Source: Perna viridis (taxonomy: Eukaryota). From it: 64,000 bases of DNA. How positions within the stretch are numbered: position 1 is the first letter of the stretch; every line of letters starts with the position of its first letter. This document shows, piece after piece, positions 9,001-18,000 of this stretch. Made by a program: the position numbers. Location: assembly GCA_037379345.1 (NCBI GenBank), contig CM074519.1, positions 16,470,742-16,534,741 on the forward strand, written 5' to 3'.

Positions 9001-12000
9001 ATATATATACATGTATGATATGTAACTCTAACACATATTTTCAGCGTTTCGGTTGTGTACCAACCTTCCTTAGCGATAACACTTAGGATTTTGGAATAAA
9101 ATTTTAAATAATGTATGAACTTTTTTTTTGTCGTTACATTGTAGGAGTTCTGCACGAATCATGGGGCAAAGCTAGCAGAGCCAAATACGAGACGTATTAT
9201 TGAATACCTGAAAAATCATTCTTTGCACTCATATACAGGTAAGACGTAAAGGTTATATTTGAGATAATAGACACTTTTTAATCGTACCTGTAATTTTAGG
9301 TGTTATACCGTTTCTTCCACAACAAACATTGCCGTCCTTTTTTTTTTTTTTAGTATAGAGATGTAATAGAGATGATTCCCACATTATGCAAAATTTTCAT
9401 ATAGATTCTCCATTAGTCTCTATGGTGATGAAATCCTCTTATCTCCGAGTGAAATGAGGGAGAATCTGTTTTTCCCGTAAATAAAACCATGAAAATTAAA
9501 TTAAACAACACCCTAAATTCTCCCAATATCAACTACGTCATCAAGGACCACCCCTCCAGTCATCAAGTCATTGCGTCATCGATATCATTACCATTATGAT
9601 TATTTGATACACTATCAACTAATCTTTTGAAATATGAATACCATTCGTAAATCAACAAGTATTTAATTGATCAACAATATGAATAACAACTGTAAACATT
9701 GTAAACACGGTAAGCATGGCGGGAATTACAATTTTTTAATCACTCGCTCGTGCAGTGTGAATGAAGCCTATGAATGGGAGAAATATCTTTTAAAACACAT
9801 TGAAACATATGTTTAGAACAGTATTGAAATTTGTATTTTTATGCATATATAACTCAATTATAATACTAGTTTTCACAATCACAAAATTTAGATATGACCT
9901 TTCTCTGAACCCGCACTGACTTCGTGTTTTATATGAAAAGTACTTAAAATGTTTTATTCTTATGTAGCACTTACTATATATTAAACAATGGGTGTTTTTA
10001 TAACTATTCAAAATCAAAATGATCCTCGTACATTATGTTTAGAGACCATACCTTTGTATCTAACTTACATGGAAGTTTATTTCTGTCATCAAGATAAATA
10101 AAAGTCGCGAAAAATTGCCTCGAAAAGTCGTGATAATTGGTGTATTTTGTCGACATAAATGACAATTTCATCTCAAAAAGTCACGATAATTTTTCGTGAT
10201 AGTTAAGATAATTATGTCGACCTTTCGAGTTAATTATCACGACTTATAGAGAGTCATGCCAATATGTAGCTTCGACATAAATATTTTCGCGATAGCTTTT
10301 TACCAAAATCACGACATTACAGCTAATTTTTGTGACAAAATGGAGACAAGTTATCTCAACTTGTCGTGAACGTATATACACTATAAACTATATATGTCGA
10401 TATAAACCATCGCAATTTTATAGTTTAAAGTTATGAAAATGCCAAGTAATGTCAGCTACAAAATGTATACATTGTGATAAATCATATTGACTTTTTTGTG
10501 AAATAACTTGAATTGTTGACGTAATATTTCGACAAACGTGAAATTTCGTGATAAGCTATCGTAACACCACGAAAAACTAGCTTATGTCGAGATATCAAGT
10601 CAATTAGTCAAGTTATTTCACGAAAAAGTCAACATAATATATCGTCATTCACATGTTTTGTTGTTGACACATATGGAGGCTTATTTCTGCCATCAAGATG
10701 TTGAGCTGTCGAGATAATTATCGAAACATGTCGACGAGTCGACTTAATTTTTTTGGAAAGTCGACTTAACGCCATTTTATGTCGATTTGTCACGAAAAAT
10801 ATCTAAACAAGTCGACATATTTTTCGCGACATCAAATATCTCAAATTCTCATCCTGAGGTCGAGATTTTGCTCGTAGCTGTCATCGTGTTGCGTTGTCCA
10901 GATAATTATATCAACTTCATCAAGTTGTATTATCGAGATAATAATCGAAAGAAGTTGACTTCATTGATTTATACATGTATTGTCAAAACATGTCGACATA
11001 ATTATGTGGACAAGTCGACAAACTAAATCATTTATTATAAAATTATCACATGTTAACATGGCATTTGACCAACCAGTCATTTAAGTAATTTTATACTACA
11101 CGTGGATCGAGGAGGCACACGGACTAGCGTCAGAGAAAGGGAGCTCTTTGTATTTTATAATATTAATAAACCAGATAGGACCACTCTGCACAATATTTGG
11201 AGGGCTTCAAATCAGGTAAGCTTAGCTAAGAAATGCATGTGGAAAATTAAAACAGAGCAACAAATATATTAAAGCTGCGCCCCCCCCCCCCCCCCCGCCT
11301 CCCCCCAAAAAAAGAAAGGTATGCAGGCAATTTACTCTTCTATCATCAGTTTCCGCGTGTCAAATGTAGCTAGATTCTACTGTCATTTATTGATTGGTGA
11401 CTTAAAACACGGTGTATATTGCTCTTTGAAATATTTATTATACAAATATCCCATGTTATTGTCAATATACATGAATATTTTCAAGAGTTACCTTGAATTG
11501 CATGTTTGTTAAATTGCCCAACGACGTGGGCGGAGGGTAATATAACACTTACATGCAATTCAAGGTACCAAGGGAAAATGTTCTTGTATATTGAACAGAT
11601 ATCTAATGTGATGGGGGGTATATGCAAAAAATATCAGTCTCAAAACTGGCATTTTTTGCATATACCCCGACGACAGACCTTTAGATATCTATTTAATTAC
11701 ACCGCGCAATCTATCGCAAAGAGGGAGCGTCTATCAAGACTAATTGAGTTATATATTGCCTGATGGCGTGGGCTTCGTCTTTCCTGCTTTGAAGAAAACG
11801 GCAAAATATATTTTAGTAAATCTTACTTTAAAAAATATGGCATATGGCAGTGTTAACATCATACTTTTTATCATCACAGAGGGATAATATAAGGGTTGGC
11901 TAAAGGTGTCATGTAATTATTTGTGTATCATATACTTGTAAAGTAAAAAATACCCTCTGAAGAGGCCGGTAACCAGTATAATCATATACTTAGTAAAGAT

Positions 12001-15000: not shown

Positions 15001-18000
15001 TTTAACATTATGAGTTATGACCCCTTAAACGTCGAAAATAGTTATTTGCCATATAGATTTTAAACCATAGGAGAAGGTTAAAAGCTTTTGCTTGCTTAAA
15101 TGTTCAGCTATTTGAGTAATACAAAATTGTTAATTGAATCGAATTTTTCAGATGACACCCTTATAGAGATTTAGCCTCTTAAACGTAAAAAATAGTGGTT
15201 TTTGCCTTATAGATAAAGAACCACAGAAGATAGAGAAAGATTTTGCTTGCTTAAATGTTCAGCTAATTGAGCTCTACAAATTTGTCCTTGGTTCAAAATT
15301 GTTAGATGACTCCTTATAGGAGTTATGGCCCCCTAAAGTCAAAAATAGTCATTTTGCTCTGTACATTGTGAACCATAGAAGATAGGGAATAACTTTTGCT
15401 TGCTGAAATATGCAGCTAATTGAACTCTACAAAATTATCAATCTAATTAAAATTAGATCTCTCACTCCGCTCCCCCTTTTTTCTATGTCGGTGCCTGGGA
15501 GATCTAACAACATCCTATTAGGGGTTATGTCTAAGGTCAAATTCGGAACACTTCTAATACATCCATACCGCCAGTGCAATCATGTACGCTCTTTTTTATT
15601 GGCCAAAAGTAATAGAACATGACCCCTAATGAGATGTCGTTAGATGACCCACGTAGTGACAGAGAAAAAGTGGGAGCTGAGTGTGGAATCTAATTTTAAT
15701 TAGATTGCAGAATTGTCTATTGTTCGGCTTTGTCAGATCACTTCTTATTGGTGTTATGGCCCCTTAAACATATAAAAATAACTCTTTTTACCATTTATTC
15801 GAAATTGTCAGATGACCGCTAACACGAGTTATGGCTCGTTAACCATAAAAAATCAGCCATTTTATGGTAGATTGTGAAGCATAAAAGGTAGGTAAAGCTT
15901 TAGTTTGCTTAATGCACAGCTGTGTGAGCTCTACAACAACTCTAAAGGTGGGAAATGACCATTATCATTTACATATTATATATAGCTATTAAAGTCAGGT
16001 GAGCGATTCAGACTCCTGGGAGTCTCTTGTATCATAACTAATCACTTATGACGAATCTCAATCATATTTTTTTTCTCAAAAACATTCAACATAAAGTGAT
16101 TATCCCATATATATACTATGGCACGCCGTTTCAGTCAAACGTATGACAACAATCTAATTACACACTCAAAATTTGAAATTGCACACTCAAAGTTAAAATG
16201 TACACTTAAAATGTAAACATGTCTTGATAATAAATAATTGAGCTGGTCGACTTGTCGAGATAGCTATGAAGACATGTTGTGAAAATAGAGATTGAAATCG
16301 ACTTTTTCAGATCATTATCTCGACAATCCGACTTCTTAATCCCGAAAAGTTAACATGATTATCTGGACAACGCAACTTCACGGTGGCAGCTACGAGCAAC
16401 ATCTCGACCTCAGGATGAGAATTTGAGATATTTGATGTCGACTTGTCGAGAAAAATATGTCGACTTGTTTAGATATTTTTCGTGACAAATCGACATAAAA
16501 ATGGCGTTAAGTCGACTTTCCAAGAAAATTAAGTCGACTTGTCGAAATAACTATGTCGACATGTTTCGATAATTATCTCGACAGCTCAACATCTTGATGG
16601 CGGAAATAAGCCTCCATAGACACTACTTGGTATTTTCATAACTTTAAATTCTCAGATTGCGATAGTTTATGTCGACAAATATCTTAGACATCATAACTTT
16701 TATGACCAGTTGAGATAATAAATTATTTGTCATGATAATTAGCACATAAAGTCGTTGTATTAGTATAAAGTTATCACATCTTATCATTGAAATATTTTAT
16801 ATGAACGGCACAAGTTGTCGTCGGATCCCTTAAAGTCGCGATAATTCATGTTATTATATCGAACGGTCGACATAATTATCTTAACTATTGCAAAAAATTA
16901 TCGTGACTTTTTGAGATAAAATTGTCATTTATGTCGACAAAATACCCAAATTATCACGACTTTTCGAGATAATTTTTCGCGACATTTACTTATCACAATG
17001 ACAGAAATAGACTTCCATAAACTTAAGATTAAAAACATTCATTGGCAAAACTATTTCAGCATAACTTTCACTTGAATCTTACGTGATTTTGACATCATTC
17101 CTGAATTGAGAAAAGACAGTTTGTGACAGATTTCATGTCAAATTCACGTGAATTGATCTTCTATATGAAATTCGTGTGACCGTTTCACAAGACGTTCATG
17201 TAAAGCGAATTTCACGTGTTCCTAGACTCACGTGAATTTCACATTATTTGAATTTCACATGAAACTCGATTCGCATGAATTACACGTGAAATTGAATTCT
17301 CATAAATTTCACTTGAACAATATTTGTGCTTGTGTAGATCATATCAGTTCTTGTGACAAAATACTGAATAGATTATATTTAAGAAATTTCCCTTACTTTG
17401 TTATATTAATTAAAATCTTTAATTTATAGAATTTCGTAAACTTTGTAAGAAGGATTGTAATCTGACTGTTTTGCATTAAAAAAACAAAATGAACGGTCAC
17501 CGTACCCCTTTTCTTTATATATTTAAGGCAGAAAATTTAAAGTGTGCCTTACATATCAGTGTGCTTTACTTAATTAGTATACCATCAGTCTACGAGGGTT
17601 GGTATATTGGAATCGACTTGTCTGTCAGCCATCCATCCGTCTGAATTTCGTCACAACAATCTTGACTCTCAAATAATGGATTGAATTCAAATTTGGTACG
17701 TTGCATTAAAACGATCGGACATGTGAGGTAAGTGATTTTGGGTTGCTGTCCGATATCAACATCATGTTTTGTTGGACTTTCAATTTTTCACTACACACAT
17801 GAAAGCCAGTGACAATTTTTTTCGTCAAAAAAGTATTGACTCCCAATGAATAGGTTTATTTTAGCTTTGGTGTGCGGCTTTATATACACTATTCATTCGT
17901 TGTAAGCGATTTTGGGTGTGTCGATATCAATTTCCAGAACCAATGAGTGTATACTATCTAAGCACAACAAAGCGGGAAACTTCGTGTTCTTCTTCTTTTT

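What the first reader, a model, noticed from the sequence alone, without database searches (positions are those of the whole stretch)
10062..17025. IS3EU transposon nested inside an IS3EU-type foldback MITE, the core of a four-level TE nest in a lectin intron
Seen: the outer element has (C/T)ATGG...CCATA ends, a perfect AACTTA 6-bp TSD, and is itself one long palindrome centred near 10560. Its right arm is split by a 5.9-kb element with TATGG...CCATA ends, a GACAC(A/T) TSD and a DDE ORF. Inside that sit a LINE tail and a HINE, which carries a MITE. Known: TAYGG..CCRTA ends, a 6-bp TSD and an IS3-like transposase define the little-studied eukaryotic IS3EU superfamily. Inference: autonomous IS3EU may preferentially insert into related MITEs, and the outer ends could mobilise the whole 7-kb composite.
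Basis: partly seen in the sequence, partly recalled or inferred. Interest (0 to 1): 0.72.

Follow-up and report, generated by a model that had tools for sequence, protein, structure and literature searches.

The report
Dead IS3EU transposon inside related MITE
A broken copy of a little-studied cut-and-paste transposon (IS3EU type) sits inside a small hairpin-shaped relative of itself in a mollusc-like genome; this is an ordinary pile-up of mobile DNA, and one case cannot show that the transposon seeks out its relatives.

Summary
A 999-bp foldback element (10068-10671 plus 16625-17019; ends CATGG..CCATA; perfect 6-bp duplication AACTTA) is split in its right arm by a 5,947-bp element (10672-16618; ends TATGG..CCATA; flanks GACACA/GACACT). 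With the insert and one flank copy removed, the outer element is a continuous palindrome centred at 10560/10561. It is 74% self-complementary; 0 of 100 shuffles exceeded 57%. The intact left arm therefore serves as an internal empty site, which excludes "one element with one long TIR".

The inner ORF is an IS3EU-type DDE transposase (Pfam rva_4, E 2e-29; 96% identical to a 407-aa database protein). This copy is defective: codons 1-34 are absent from the window, there is an in-frame TAA, and a near-invariant Gly beside the first catalytic Asp is changed. Inside it lie a probable LINE tail, a HINE-like satellite element and a small hairpin MITE, so four nesting levels are real.

The two inferences, preferential insertion into related MITEs and mobilisation of the composite, rest on a single case. 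They could not be tested because no genome of this organism was searchable. Verdict: a real, well-resolved but ordinary nested insertion, and a new member of a known superfamily.

The parts
10062..10067 (.). Left target-site duplication of the outer element (AACTTA)
   Evidence: Read directly. Identical to 17020-17025; chance of 6/6 about 4e-4.
10068..10671 (.). Outer foldback MITE, part 1. It comprises the whole left arm (10068 to about 10560), the centre at 10560/61 and the first ~110 bp of the right arm. It starts CATGG.
   Evidence: Inverted repeats I1, I2 and I7; blastn of the arms; self-complement alignment with centre 10560/61; 2 GTCGAC sites.
10448..10453 (.). Mirror of the inner element's target site in the uninterrupted left arm (AATGTC, complement GACATT). 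It acts as an internal empty site.
   Evidence: In the self-complement alignment, both 10666-10671 and 16619-16624 fall opposite this hexamer.
10666..10671 (.). Left target-site duplication of the inner element (GACACA)
   Evidence: Read directly. Matches 16619-16624 at 5 of 6 positions.
10672..11059 (+). Left long TIR of the inner IS3EU element. It starts TATGG and carries 6 GTCGAC sites.
   Evidence: blastn against 16618-16211: 79% over 422 columns, E 2e-105. Terminal 64 nt are 98% complementary. GTCGAC count.
11060..13382 (.). Internal 5' region of the inner element, with no recognisable transposase N-terminus. It holds a poly-C run (11280-11306), hairpins (11462-11594, 11615-11668) and the probable LINE fragment.
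   Evidence: tblastn with P0001, P0002, P0005 and P0017 found no match to residues 1-34 here. None of the 4 ORFs of 70 aa or more that lie wholly within 11060-13382 had a Pfam hit. Repeats.
12314..12633 (-). Probable 5'-truncated LINE tail (C-terminal end of an ORF2-like protein, with one frameshift near 12343-12355)
   Evidence: HMMER against 1.84 billion representatives gave 4 hits, of which 2 are credible (P0124, P0125). tblastn of those two against the window: 12531-12343 plus 12355-12314, E 1e-11. A comparable Cys/His motif lies downstream of an RVT_1 domain in the window's own LINE at 50539-51764. No Pfam hit. A possible 9-bp flank repeat AATATTTCA at 12258 and 12646 is no better than chance.
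13383..14504 (+). IS3EU transposase pseudogene. It covers residues 35-407 of the 407-aa relative P0001, has an in-frame TAA at 13455-13457 and its natural stop at 14502-14504. The DDE triad is D91/D150/E191 of the 348-aa ORF.
   Evidence: Pfam rva_4 E 1.9e-29. tblastn with P0001: 95.7% over 373 aa. Alignments A2 and A3. NCBIfam IS481 E 1.8e-11 and IS3 E 3.8e-4, both below cut-off. AlphaFold2 pLDDT 90.4. Foldseek matches to retroviral integrases and IstA, E about 1e-5.
15008..16030 (+). HINE-like (Helentron-associated) element: a 154-bp tandem array (15008-15454 and 15708-15936) plus a right flank with the palindrome AGACTCCTGGGAGTCT, ending CTTGT at 16030. The 5' boundary, somewhere in 14505-15007, is undetermined.
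   Evidence: TRF: period 154, 2.9 copies; repeat families D1-D5. Two further copies in the window, at 39872-40230 (-) and 63509-63851 (+), share the array and the same 3' end. SubTIRs and a common left flank were not found.
15439..15707 (.). Small hairpin MITE that interrupts the HINE tandem array
   Evidence: Inverted arms 15439-15481 and 15665-15707, 43 nt, 88% complementary, plus inner arms of 58 nt at 78%. The array register resumes at 15708 (families D2, D3). By eye the flanks read CAAAATT / CAGAATT.
16211..16618 (-). Right long TIR of the inner element. It ends CCATA and carries 6 GTCGAC sites.
16619..16624 (.). Right target-site duplication of the inner element (GACACT)
   Evidence: Read directly.
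16625..17019 (.). Outer foldback MITE, part 2 (rest of the right arm). It ends CCATA and carries 3 GTCGAC sites.
   Evidence: Pairs with 10069-10447. GTCGAC count.
17020..17025 (.). Right target-site duplication of the outer element (AACTTA)
   Evidence: Read directly.
6072..6149 (+). Context: candidate upstream exon with a C-type-lectin N-terminal motif (CEEGW...SCYKLF...W.DAK) followed by GT
   Evidence: Regex scan and reading of the sequence. No Pfam hit even at E<=10.
18054..18275 (+). Context: exon encoding the C-terminal half of a C-type lectin domain
   Evidence: Pfam Lectin_C E 8.5e-10, profile positions 41-107 of 107. The homologue search with this exon alone found nothing.

Best explanation
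This is a chronological pile-up of mobile elements, with nothing special about the targeting.

Order of events:
1. A 999-bp non-coding foldback derivative (MITE) of an IS3EU-type transposon inserted at AACTTA, between two C-type-lectin exons.
2. A full-size IS3EU element of a related but distinct family inserted into the MITE's right arm at GACAYT, making a 6-bp duplication.
3. The inner copy then decayed. It lost or never had the first 34 codons, gained a stop codon, and received a LINE fragment and a HINE-like rolling-circle element.
4. The HINE-like element was itself hit by a small hairpin MITE.

Mechanism (inferred from the family, not shown here): the DDE (RNase-H-fold) transposase binds the GTCGAC-rich subterminal repeats through its N-terminal helical domain. 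It cleaves at the TA..TA termini and joins them to staggered cuts 6 bp apart.

Both elements have long inverted arms of about 390-490 bp. The foldback MITE is therefore what remains when the interior of such an element is deleted.

The insertion into a relative is most simply a coincidence.
For: Nesting:
- The pairing partner of the outer left arm switches from 10585-10669 to 16619-16682 exactly at the inner ends (I2 and I7).
- Pairing is seamless after the insert is removed in silico, and 0 of 100 shuffles reach that self-complementarity.
- The inner ends are flanked by a 5/6 direct repeat. Both copies fall opposite one hexamer of the intact arm.

Relatedness of the two elements:
- The terminal 28 nt match at 24/28 between outer-left and inner-left. 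The outer element's own two ends match at 23/28.
- 17 of the window's 22 GTCGAC sites lie in the 1.8 kb of arms: 12 in the inner element, 5 in the outer.
- Beyond the first ~130 nt, blastn finds no outer-inner similarity, so these are distinct families.

Transposase:
- Pfam rva_4, E 1.9e-29.
- 264 relatives at E<=1e-3 among 994 candidates, mostly 400-420 aa. The closest named ones are from scallops, oysters and mussels at 55-63% identity.
- In the 57-sequence alignment, D150 and E191 are invariant and D91 is at least 90% conserved.
- Structure model pLDDT 90.4. Best solved-structure matches are PFV, HIV and RSV integrases, IstA, TnsB and MuA.

Decay of the inner copy.

Later insertions.

Published family features (passages read):
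- TA..TA ends and 6-bp TSD (PMC10045372).
- TAYGG..CCRTA ends and TIRs over 30 bp (PMC12730594).
- 6-bp TSD and TA..TA ends for GingerRoot (PMC6839031).
Against: - The order of steps 1 and 2 is not proven. The nest could have formed elsewhere and moved in as a unit.
- The outer duplication is perfect (6/6) while the inner one has a mismatch (5/6). This is the pattern expected if the outer insertion were the younger event, although 12 bases carry almost no dating power.
- The only IS3EU-type coding copy in 64 kb lies inside the only related MITE in 64 kb. That target is 999 bp of about 58 kb, or 1.7%. This hints at non-random targeting, but the case was picked after the fact.
- Transposase binding to GTCGAC repeats is inference only.
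- The loss of codons 1-34 could instead reflect an intron. Similarity to P0001 starts at a canonical ...TTTTAG acceptor at 13388-13389. Even so, the first exon is not in the window.
Confidence: 0.75

Rival explanations
1. Homing. The IS3EU transposase, bound to arrays of its own subterminal GTCGAC-type repeats, is drawn to related arrays elsewhere. IS3EU elements would therefore insert into related MITEs more often than chance allows.
For: - The outer and inner elements share the terminal 28 nt (24/28) and the GTCGAC motif, with 17 of the window's 22 sites inside the arms.
- The only inner-type copy in the window sits in the only related MITE, a target of about 1.7% of the window.
- From recall only: some bacterial IS (IS30, IS911) insert next to sequences that resemble their own ends. 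My literature search and the passages I read did not retrieve support for this.
Against: - There is one case, chosen after the fact by a reader looking for oddities.
- The insertion point is not at an end-like sequence. It lies ~110 bp from the palindrome centre and ~400 bp from the outer end.
- Nested TE insertions are commonplace. This same 7-kb stretch holds three further unrelated insertions.
- No genome-wide count was possible.
Confidence: 0.1
2. Composite transposition. The inner element entered the MITE at another locus, and the outer ends then moved the whole ~7-kb unit into the lectin intron.
For: - The outer TSD is perfect (6/6) while the inner one has a mismatch (5/6).
- Published GingerRoot/IS3EU elements range from 3.9 to 12.9 kb, so 7 kb is within the movable size (passage of PMC6839031).
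Against: - The outer arms are the more diverged: 75% overall and 23/28 at the tips, against 27/28 for the inner tips.
- The outer left terminus reads CA, not the TA reported for all complete IS3EU families.
- No second composite copy exists in the window.
- Twelve TSD bases cannot order the events.
Confidence: 0.1
3. A single element with one compound TIR of ~800 bp on each side (outer plus inner repeats), with 218 extra bases (10454-10671) on the left and no nesting.
For: The order A-X-B ... B'-A' (10069-10453, 10454-10671, 10672-11059 ... 16211-16618, 16619-17018) is formally what a long TIR with an indel would look like.
Against: - The 218 extra bases are not random. Bases 10585-10669 pair with 10450-10534, continuing the outer palindrome (I2).
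- A second full terminal motif TATGGAGGCTTATTTC... sits exactly at the switch points, flanked by a 5/6 direct repeat.
- The inner repeats are far less diverged at their tips than the outer ones.
Confidence: 0.03

Closest known systems
[quoted passage not shown]
   Same: - 6-bp target-site duplication.
- TA..TA termini, of the TAYGG..CCRTA form.
- Terminal inverted repeats.
- A DDE transposase of about 400 aa without an HHCC zinc finger.
- Core blocks (..DKLKPYG....IDGFSR..WL....D.GTEN....N.RIE.FW..) visibly shared with the IS3EU-1_CGi_2p row in the supplement of PMC10045372.
- Weak HMM similarity to bacterial IS481 and IS3 transposases, in line with the phylogeny described in PMC10045372.
   Different: - The arms are much longer: about 390 nt in the inner element and about 490 nt in the foldback outer element. 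The passages I read give 100-150 bp for GingerRoot and "longer than 30 bp" for fungal IS3EU.
- The arms are packed with GTCGAC repeats.
- The outer element's left tip reads CA, not TA.
- This coding copy is broken.
Foldback-type MITEs / internal-deletion derivatives of long-TIR DNA transposons
   Same: Short (999 bp), non-coding, almost entirely two inverted arms, flanked by the TSD of the parent superfamily, with tips shared with a coding element.
   Different: - Only one copy is visible, so multiplicity, which is part of the definition of a MITE family, is untested.
- Apart from the tips and short motifs, its arms are not alignable to the inner element, so the inner family is not its direct parent.
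Nested MITE and transposon insertions in plant and animal genomes (e.g. maize/rice MITE-in-MITE nests; recalled, not retrieved)
   Same: One TIR element interrupts another, with its own TSD. The order of events can be read from the interruption.
   Different: Here the intact mirror arm of the palindrome supplies an internal empty-site control. That is convenient, but not a new principle.
Cg_HINE / pearl elements (non-autonomous Helentrons with central satellite-like repeats) of oysters (PMC7492417, passages read)
   Same: - A short array of ~154-bp repeats, within the published 140-180 bp range.
- A conserved right flank with a palindrome close to the 3' end.
- Insertion inside another TE.
- Several related copies within 64 kb.
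   Different: No 11-12-bp subterminal inverted repeats, no left-flank microsatellite and no shared left flank were found. The 5' end is undefined.

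Membership tests
IS3EU superfamily (inner element 10672-16618) | Transposase belonging to the IS3EU/GingerRoot DDE lineage | tested here: met
   - Pfam rva_4 E 1.9e-29.
- DDE triad conserved in 12- and 57-sequence alignments.
- By eye, roughly 45% identity to the IS3EU-1_CGi_2p core in the supplement of PMC10045372.
- No tree was built, and the Repbase sequence was not entered into any tool.
IS3EU superfamily (inner element) | 6-bp target-site duplication | tested here: met
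   GACACA / GACACT, 5 of 6. Both copies map opposite one hexamer of the intact palindrome arm.
IS3EU superfamily (inner element) | TA..TA termini (TAYGG..CCRTA) and TIRs longer than 30 bp | tested here: met
   TATGG..CCATA. The terminal 64 nt are 98% complementary, and the arms extend about 390 nt. Criteria from passages of PMC10045372 and PMC12730594.
Autonomous IS3EU element (inner element) | Intact full-length transposase reading frame | tested here: not met
   Residues 1-34 of the 407-aa relative are absent from the window. There is an in-frame TAA at 13455-13457, and a Gly conserved in at least 90% of sequences is changed to Cys beside D91.
IS3EU superfamily (outer element 10068-17019 without the insert) | 6-bp TSD and TA..TA termini | tested here: inconclusive
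   The TSD AACTTA is perfect and the right end is CCATA. The left end is CATGG, with first base C where T is expected. The tips match the inner element at 24/28.
MITE (outer element) | Short, non-coding, TIR-bounded, present in many copies | tested here: inconclusive
   It is 999 bp and 74% self-complementary, with no coding match. Only one copy is present in the window. Copy number in the genome is not testable with these tools.
HINE (non-autonomous Helentron) | Central array of satellite-like repeats of 140-180 bp | tested here: met
   Period 154, 2.9 copies, plus a continuation after the small MITE. Criterion from PMC7492417.
HINE (non-autonomous Helentron) | Right flank with a short palindrome near a conserved 3' end | tested here: met
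   The palindrome AGACTCCTGGGAGTCT is followed by CTTGT. The same 3' end is present in two other copies in the window, after which the sequences diverge.
HINE (non-autonomous Helentron) | 5' and 3' subterminal inverted repeats (11-12 bp) and a microsatellite in the left flank | tested here: not met
   No 10-mer with at most 1 mismatch, and no 12-mer with at most 2 mismatches, pairs convincingly between 14505-15012 and the right flank. No common left flank exists among the three copies. No microsatellite was found.
LINE (non-LTR retrotransposon) fragment at 12314-12633 (-) | Homology to ORF2 / reverse transcriptase | tested here: inconclusive
   - No Pfam hit, and the word-based search found nothing.
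- The full HMMER search gave 4 hits. Two are repeat artefacts. Two (P0124, P0125) align at their extreme C-termini but carry no name or Pfam domain.
- The Atlas lead to zf-RVT scored 0.92 with 135 shared features, which is a lead only.
- A similar Cys/His motif follows an RVT_1 domain in another LINE of this window.
Intron of a C-type lectin gene | Lectin exons on both sides, same strand, with splice sites | tested here: inconclusive
   - Downstream exon: Lectin_C E 8.5e-10.
- Upstream: only a motif match at 6072-6149 followed by GT, with no Pfam hit.
- The middle part of the domain was not found, and there was no homologue.
- Exons were searched singly.

The most novel reading that the evidence does not exclude
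IS3EU transposases home to arrays of their own family's subterminal repeats. Autonomous elements would then preferentially land in related foldback MITEs. This would build composites whose outer ends can carry a coding copy onward. It would be a eukaryotic counterpart of the end-targeted insertion recalled for some bacterial IS.
Probability: 0.08. Interest if true: 0.55.

Novelty: new member of a known kind. Interest (0 to 1): 0.22.

Why it matters
The locus gives a clean, internally controlled example of IS3EU insertion. It shows the 6-bp duplication, TAYGG..CCRTA ends and long GTCGAC-rich arms in an animal lineage where the superfamily has hardly been described in print. It also shows how a foldback MITE relates to a long-TIR coding element.

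It does not bear on host biology beyond lengthening a probable lectin intron by 7 kb. The more interesting idea, self-targeting by the transposase, would be worth a genome-wide count. This window provides one anecdote, not evidence.

Tried and rejected
- **Transposase N-terminus.** tblastn with four full-length relatives (word size 2, E<=10) found nothing for residues 1-34. There were only chance-level hits elsewhere in the window, all with E of 1.9 or higher.
- **LINE fragment.**
  - The word-indexed search for longer proteins found nothing.
  - In the HMMER search, 2 of the 4 hits (P0122, an insect-allergen repeat protein, and P0123, a CECG-repeat protein) were repeat-driven artefacts and were dropped.
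  - Pfam found nothing at E<=10.
  - A 9-bp flank repeat was no better than chance: 3 such matches were found and about 3 expected.
- **Lectin gene.** The homologue search with the single exon 18054-18275 found nothing. Pfam on 147 small ORFs in the flanks found no second lectin exon.
- **HINE 5' end.** SubTIR searches and left-flank comparison among the three copies gave nothing.
- **A fifth nesting level.** No inverted or direct repeats link the two flanks of the outer element.
- **RNA genes.** Rfam and tRNA scans of the window found nothing.
- **Solved structures by sequence.** A sequence search with P0001 against solved structures found nothing at E<=1.
- **Literature on end-targeted insertion by IS3-family elements.** One search and one paper's passages gave no usable statement.
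- **The maize/rice nested-MITE paper.** I recalled it, but it was not in the listing.
- **Not done.**
  - Genome contigs holds only bacteria and archaea and was not used.
  - No genome-wide count of inner-in-outer insertions, no search for composite copies and no presence/absence test could therefore be made.

Full report
**Setting.** The window is AT-rich (GC 0.30-0.37), has no N and is full of animal-type repeats. The closest named relatives of the transposase are from scallops, oysters and mussels at 55-63% identity. The oyster-type satellite-carrying elements described in PMC7492417 (passages) have look-alikes here. I therefore take the source to be a bivalve-like invertebrate (inference). 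Nothing suggested human sequence.

- The outer element runs 10068-17019 between two perfect copies of AACTTA (10062-67 and 17020-25). It begins CATGG and ends CCATA.
- The inner element runs 10672-16618 (5,947 bp). It begins TATGG, ends CCATA, and lies between GACACA and GACACT.
- At the window's base composition, a 6/6 flank match has probability about 4e-4, and at least 5/6 about 7e-3.
- A 21-nt degenerate terminal motif built from these ends occurs four times in 64 kb, exactly at the four ends. None were expected from 100 shuffles.

**Two elements, not one long TIR.**
- blastn of the region against the window finds two separate inverted pairs. The first is 10672-11059 with 16618-16211 (79% of 422 columns, E 2e-105). 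The second is 10069-10453 with 17018-16619 (75% of 409, E 8e-73).
- The repeat finder adds a third pair inside the left part: 10450-10534 with 10585-10669 (85 nt, 76%).
- The left arm of the outer element therefore pairs first with 16619 onward and then, without a gap, with 10669 downward. The switch falls exactly at the inner element's ends.
- In a script I removed 10672-16624 (the insert plus one flank copy). The remaining 999 bp aligned to their own reverse complement at 774 of 1,042 columns (74.3%). The centre is at 10560/10561, and pairing is unbroken across the joint (10447 pairs with 16625, 10448 with 10671).
- One hundred shuffles gave a mean of 55.1% and at most 56.9%.
- Both copies of the inner flank repeat fall opposite the same hexamer of the intact arm (10448-10453, complement GACATT). 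That hexamer acts as a built-in empty site.
- This is what a target-site duplication inside a palindrome should look like. A single compound TIR would not produce it.

**The two elements are relatives.**
- Their first 28 nt agree at 24/28 (outer-left against inner-left). That is as good as the outer element's own two tips (23/28). The inner tips agree at 27/28.
- Both carry the palindromic hexamer GTCGAC in their arms. Of the window's 22 sites, 17 lie in the 1.8 kb of arms: 12 in the inner element, 5 in the outer, and none in the inner element's 5.1-kb interior.
- Beyond the first ~130 nt, blastn reports no outer-inner similarity. They are therefore distinct families sharing tips and a subterminal motif.
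- Both have unusually long arms (about 390 and about 490 nt). Deleting the interior of such an element would leave exactly a foldback MITE (inference).

**What the inner element encodes.**
- The 348-aa ORF 13458-14501 matches Pfam rva_4 (integrase core) at E 1.9e-29. It matches rve only below cut-off.
- The homologue search returned 264 proteins at E<=1e-3 among 994 candidates, and the 120 listed are mostly 400-420 aa. The best, P0001 (407 aa, an unnamed record), is 96% identical.
- In a 57-sequence alignment, D150 and E191 are invariant and D91 is at least 90% conserved. In the 12-sequence alignment all three are invariant.
- NCBIfam gives sub-threshold similarity to IS481 (E 1.8e-11) and IS3 (E 3.8e-4) transposases.
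- An AlphaFold2 model built on that alignment has mean pLDDT 90.4. Its best solved-structure matches are foamy-virus, HIV and RSV integrases, the IS21 transposase IstA, TnsB and MuA. E-values are about 1e-5, but whole-chain TM-scores are only about 0.3.
- A sequence-only search of solved structures found nothing.

**IS3EU membership.** I read passages, not whole papers.
- PMC10045372 says complete IS3EU families always have TA..TA termini and usually 6-bp TSDs, and that IS3EU and GingerRoot form one lineage.
- PMC12730594 says fungal IS3EU have 6-bp TSDs, TIRs over 30 bp and ends TAYGG..CCRTA.
- PMC6839031 gives 6-bp TSDs, 100-150-bp TIRs and TA..TA ends for GingerRoot, and mentions homologues in the Pacific oyster.
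- The supplement of PMC10045372 prints the core of Repbase IS3EU-1_CGi_2p. By eye it shares the blocks around the three catalytic residues with the window's protein, at roughly 45% identity. I did not enter that sequence into any tool, so there is no computed score or tree.
- The inner element meets every structural criterion. The outer one meets them except that its left tip reads CA.

**The inner copy is dead.**
- tblastn with P0001 aligns residues 35-407 to 13383-14501 at 95.7% identity. Residues 1-34 match nothing in the element, or anywhere in the window above chance.
- Codon 59 is TAA (13455-13457) where the relative has Leu.
- Position 92 is Cys where at least 90% of 57 relatives have Gly, right beside the first catalytic Asp.
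- The N-terminal region that is missing is conserved across the family. It probably forms part of the DNA-binding domain; Pfam gives only weak HTH hints at E 0.4-0.7.
- Similarity to P0001 begins exactly after a canonical ...TTTTAG at 13388-13389. The gene may therefore have an intron there, but the first exon is not in the window.
- "Autonomous" therefore describes the family, not this copy. Its ends look intact, so it could still be moved in trans (inference).

**Later insertions.**
- *HINE-like element.* A 154-bp tandem array (15008-15454, 2.9 copies) resumes at 15708-15936 after a 269-bp hairpin element (15439-15707; arms 43 nt, 88%).
  - The array is followed by a flank with the palindrome AGACTCCTGGGAGTCT, and the element ends CTTGT at 16030.
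  - Two other arrays in the window (39872-40230 minus, 63509-63851 plus) end with the same ...GGAG(T/C)CTCTTGT and then diverge. This fixes the 3' end.
  - That matches three of the HINE features listed in PMC7492417.
  - The subterminal inverted repeats, the microsatellite and a common left flank were not found, so I call it HINE-like with an undefined 5' end.
- *Probable LINE tail.* On the minus strand, 12314-12633 aligns, with one frameshift, to the extreme C-termini of two unnamed proteins (tblastn E 1e-11).
  - Neither protein has a Pfam domain.
  - Two of the four HMMER hits were repeat artefacts, which I dropped.
  - A comparable Cys/His motif sits downstream of an RVT_1 domain in a LINE elsewhere in the window. 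The Atlas gave only a weak lead to zf-RVT.
  - A LINE tail is therefore probable, not proven.
- Four nesting levels (outer MITE, inner IS3EU, HINE-like element, small MITE) are real.

**Host gene.**
- The exon at 18054-18275 (+) encodes the second half of a C-type lectin domain (E 8.5e-10). An Ig V-set exon follows at 19121-19480.
- A motif typical of the first half of the domain, followed by GT, lies at 6072-6149 (+), but it has no Pfam support. I did not find the middle of the domain.
- The exon searched on its own found no homologue. I made no joined exon model.
- "In a lectin intron" is therefore plausible but unverified.
- No repeats link the two flanks of the outer element, so there is no sign of a fifth level.

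- *Preference for related MITEs.* The only coding-type copy in the window sits in the only related MITE, a target of about 1.7% of the remaining window. That is one event, noticed because it looked interesting. It also lies in a stretch that shows three other, unrelated insertions.
- *Mobilisation as a composite.* Nothing speaks for it except the perfect outer TSD. The more diverged outer tips and the CA left terminus speak mildly against it.
- My statement that some bacterial IS target end-like sequences, and that MITE-in-MITE nests are well known in maize and rice, is recalled. Two searches and the passages did not supply a citation.

**Verdict.** This is a real and neatly resolved nested insertion of a defective IS3EU element in a related foldback MITE. 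It is a new member of a known superfamily with unusually long, GTCGAC-rich arms. It is mechanistically ordinary, and the homing idea remains an untested long shot.

Noticed in passing
window 39872-40230 (-) and 63509-63851 (+): Two more satellite-carrying, HINE-like elements related to the one at 15008-16030 (60-62% identity over the array). All three share the 3' end ...GGAG(T/C)CTCTTGT.
   Followed up: partly
window 17060-17317: A dense cluster of TTCACGTGAA-type short direct and inverted repeats (27-nt period) lies immediately right of the outer element. It may be the subterminal region of yet another transposon.
   Followed up: no
window 10068-11059 and 16211-17019: The transposon arms have a CpG observed/expected ratio of 1.8, against 0.89 for the whole window. 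This is largely due to the GTCGAC/TCGCGA-type motifs, and suggests the motifs are young or maintained.
   Followed up: no
window 19121-19480 (+): An immunoglobulin V-set exon lies about 850 bp downstream of the lectin exon on the same strand. This suggests a lectin-Ig gene.
   Followed up: no
window 27815-30476 (-): Four ORF pieces match successive parts of the sodium:solute symporter family, profile positions 166-397. These are exons of a transporter gene. A 205-bp x2 tandem repeat at 29106-29510 lies within this span.
   Followed up: no
window 50539-53177 (-) and 56604-58687 (-): Two decayed LINEs with RVT_1 and endonuclease matches. The first ends with a Cys/His motif like that of the fragment at 12.3-12.6 kb.
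   Followed up: partly
window 59313-59744 (-) and 61296-61922 (-): Exons with chitin-binding peritrophin-A (E 4e-24) and von Willebrand A (E 7e-9) domains.
   Followed up: no
window 11280-11306, 11462-11594, 11615-11668: A 27-nt poly-C run and two hairpins (44-nt arms at 84%; 24-nt arms at 92%) lie in the unexplained 5' interior of the inner element. They may be further small insertions.
   Followed up: no
window 20409-20703 and 47578-47868: Two very young two-copy tandem duplications of 144 bp (98% matches) and 143 bp (93%).
   Followed up: no
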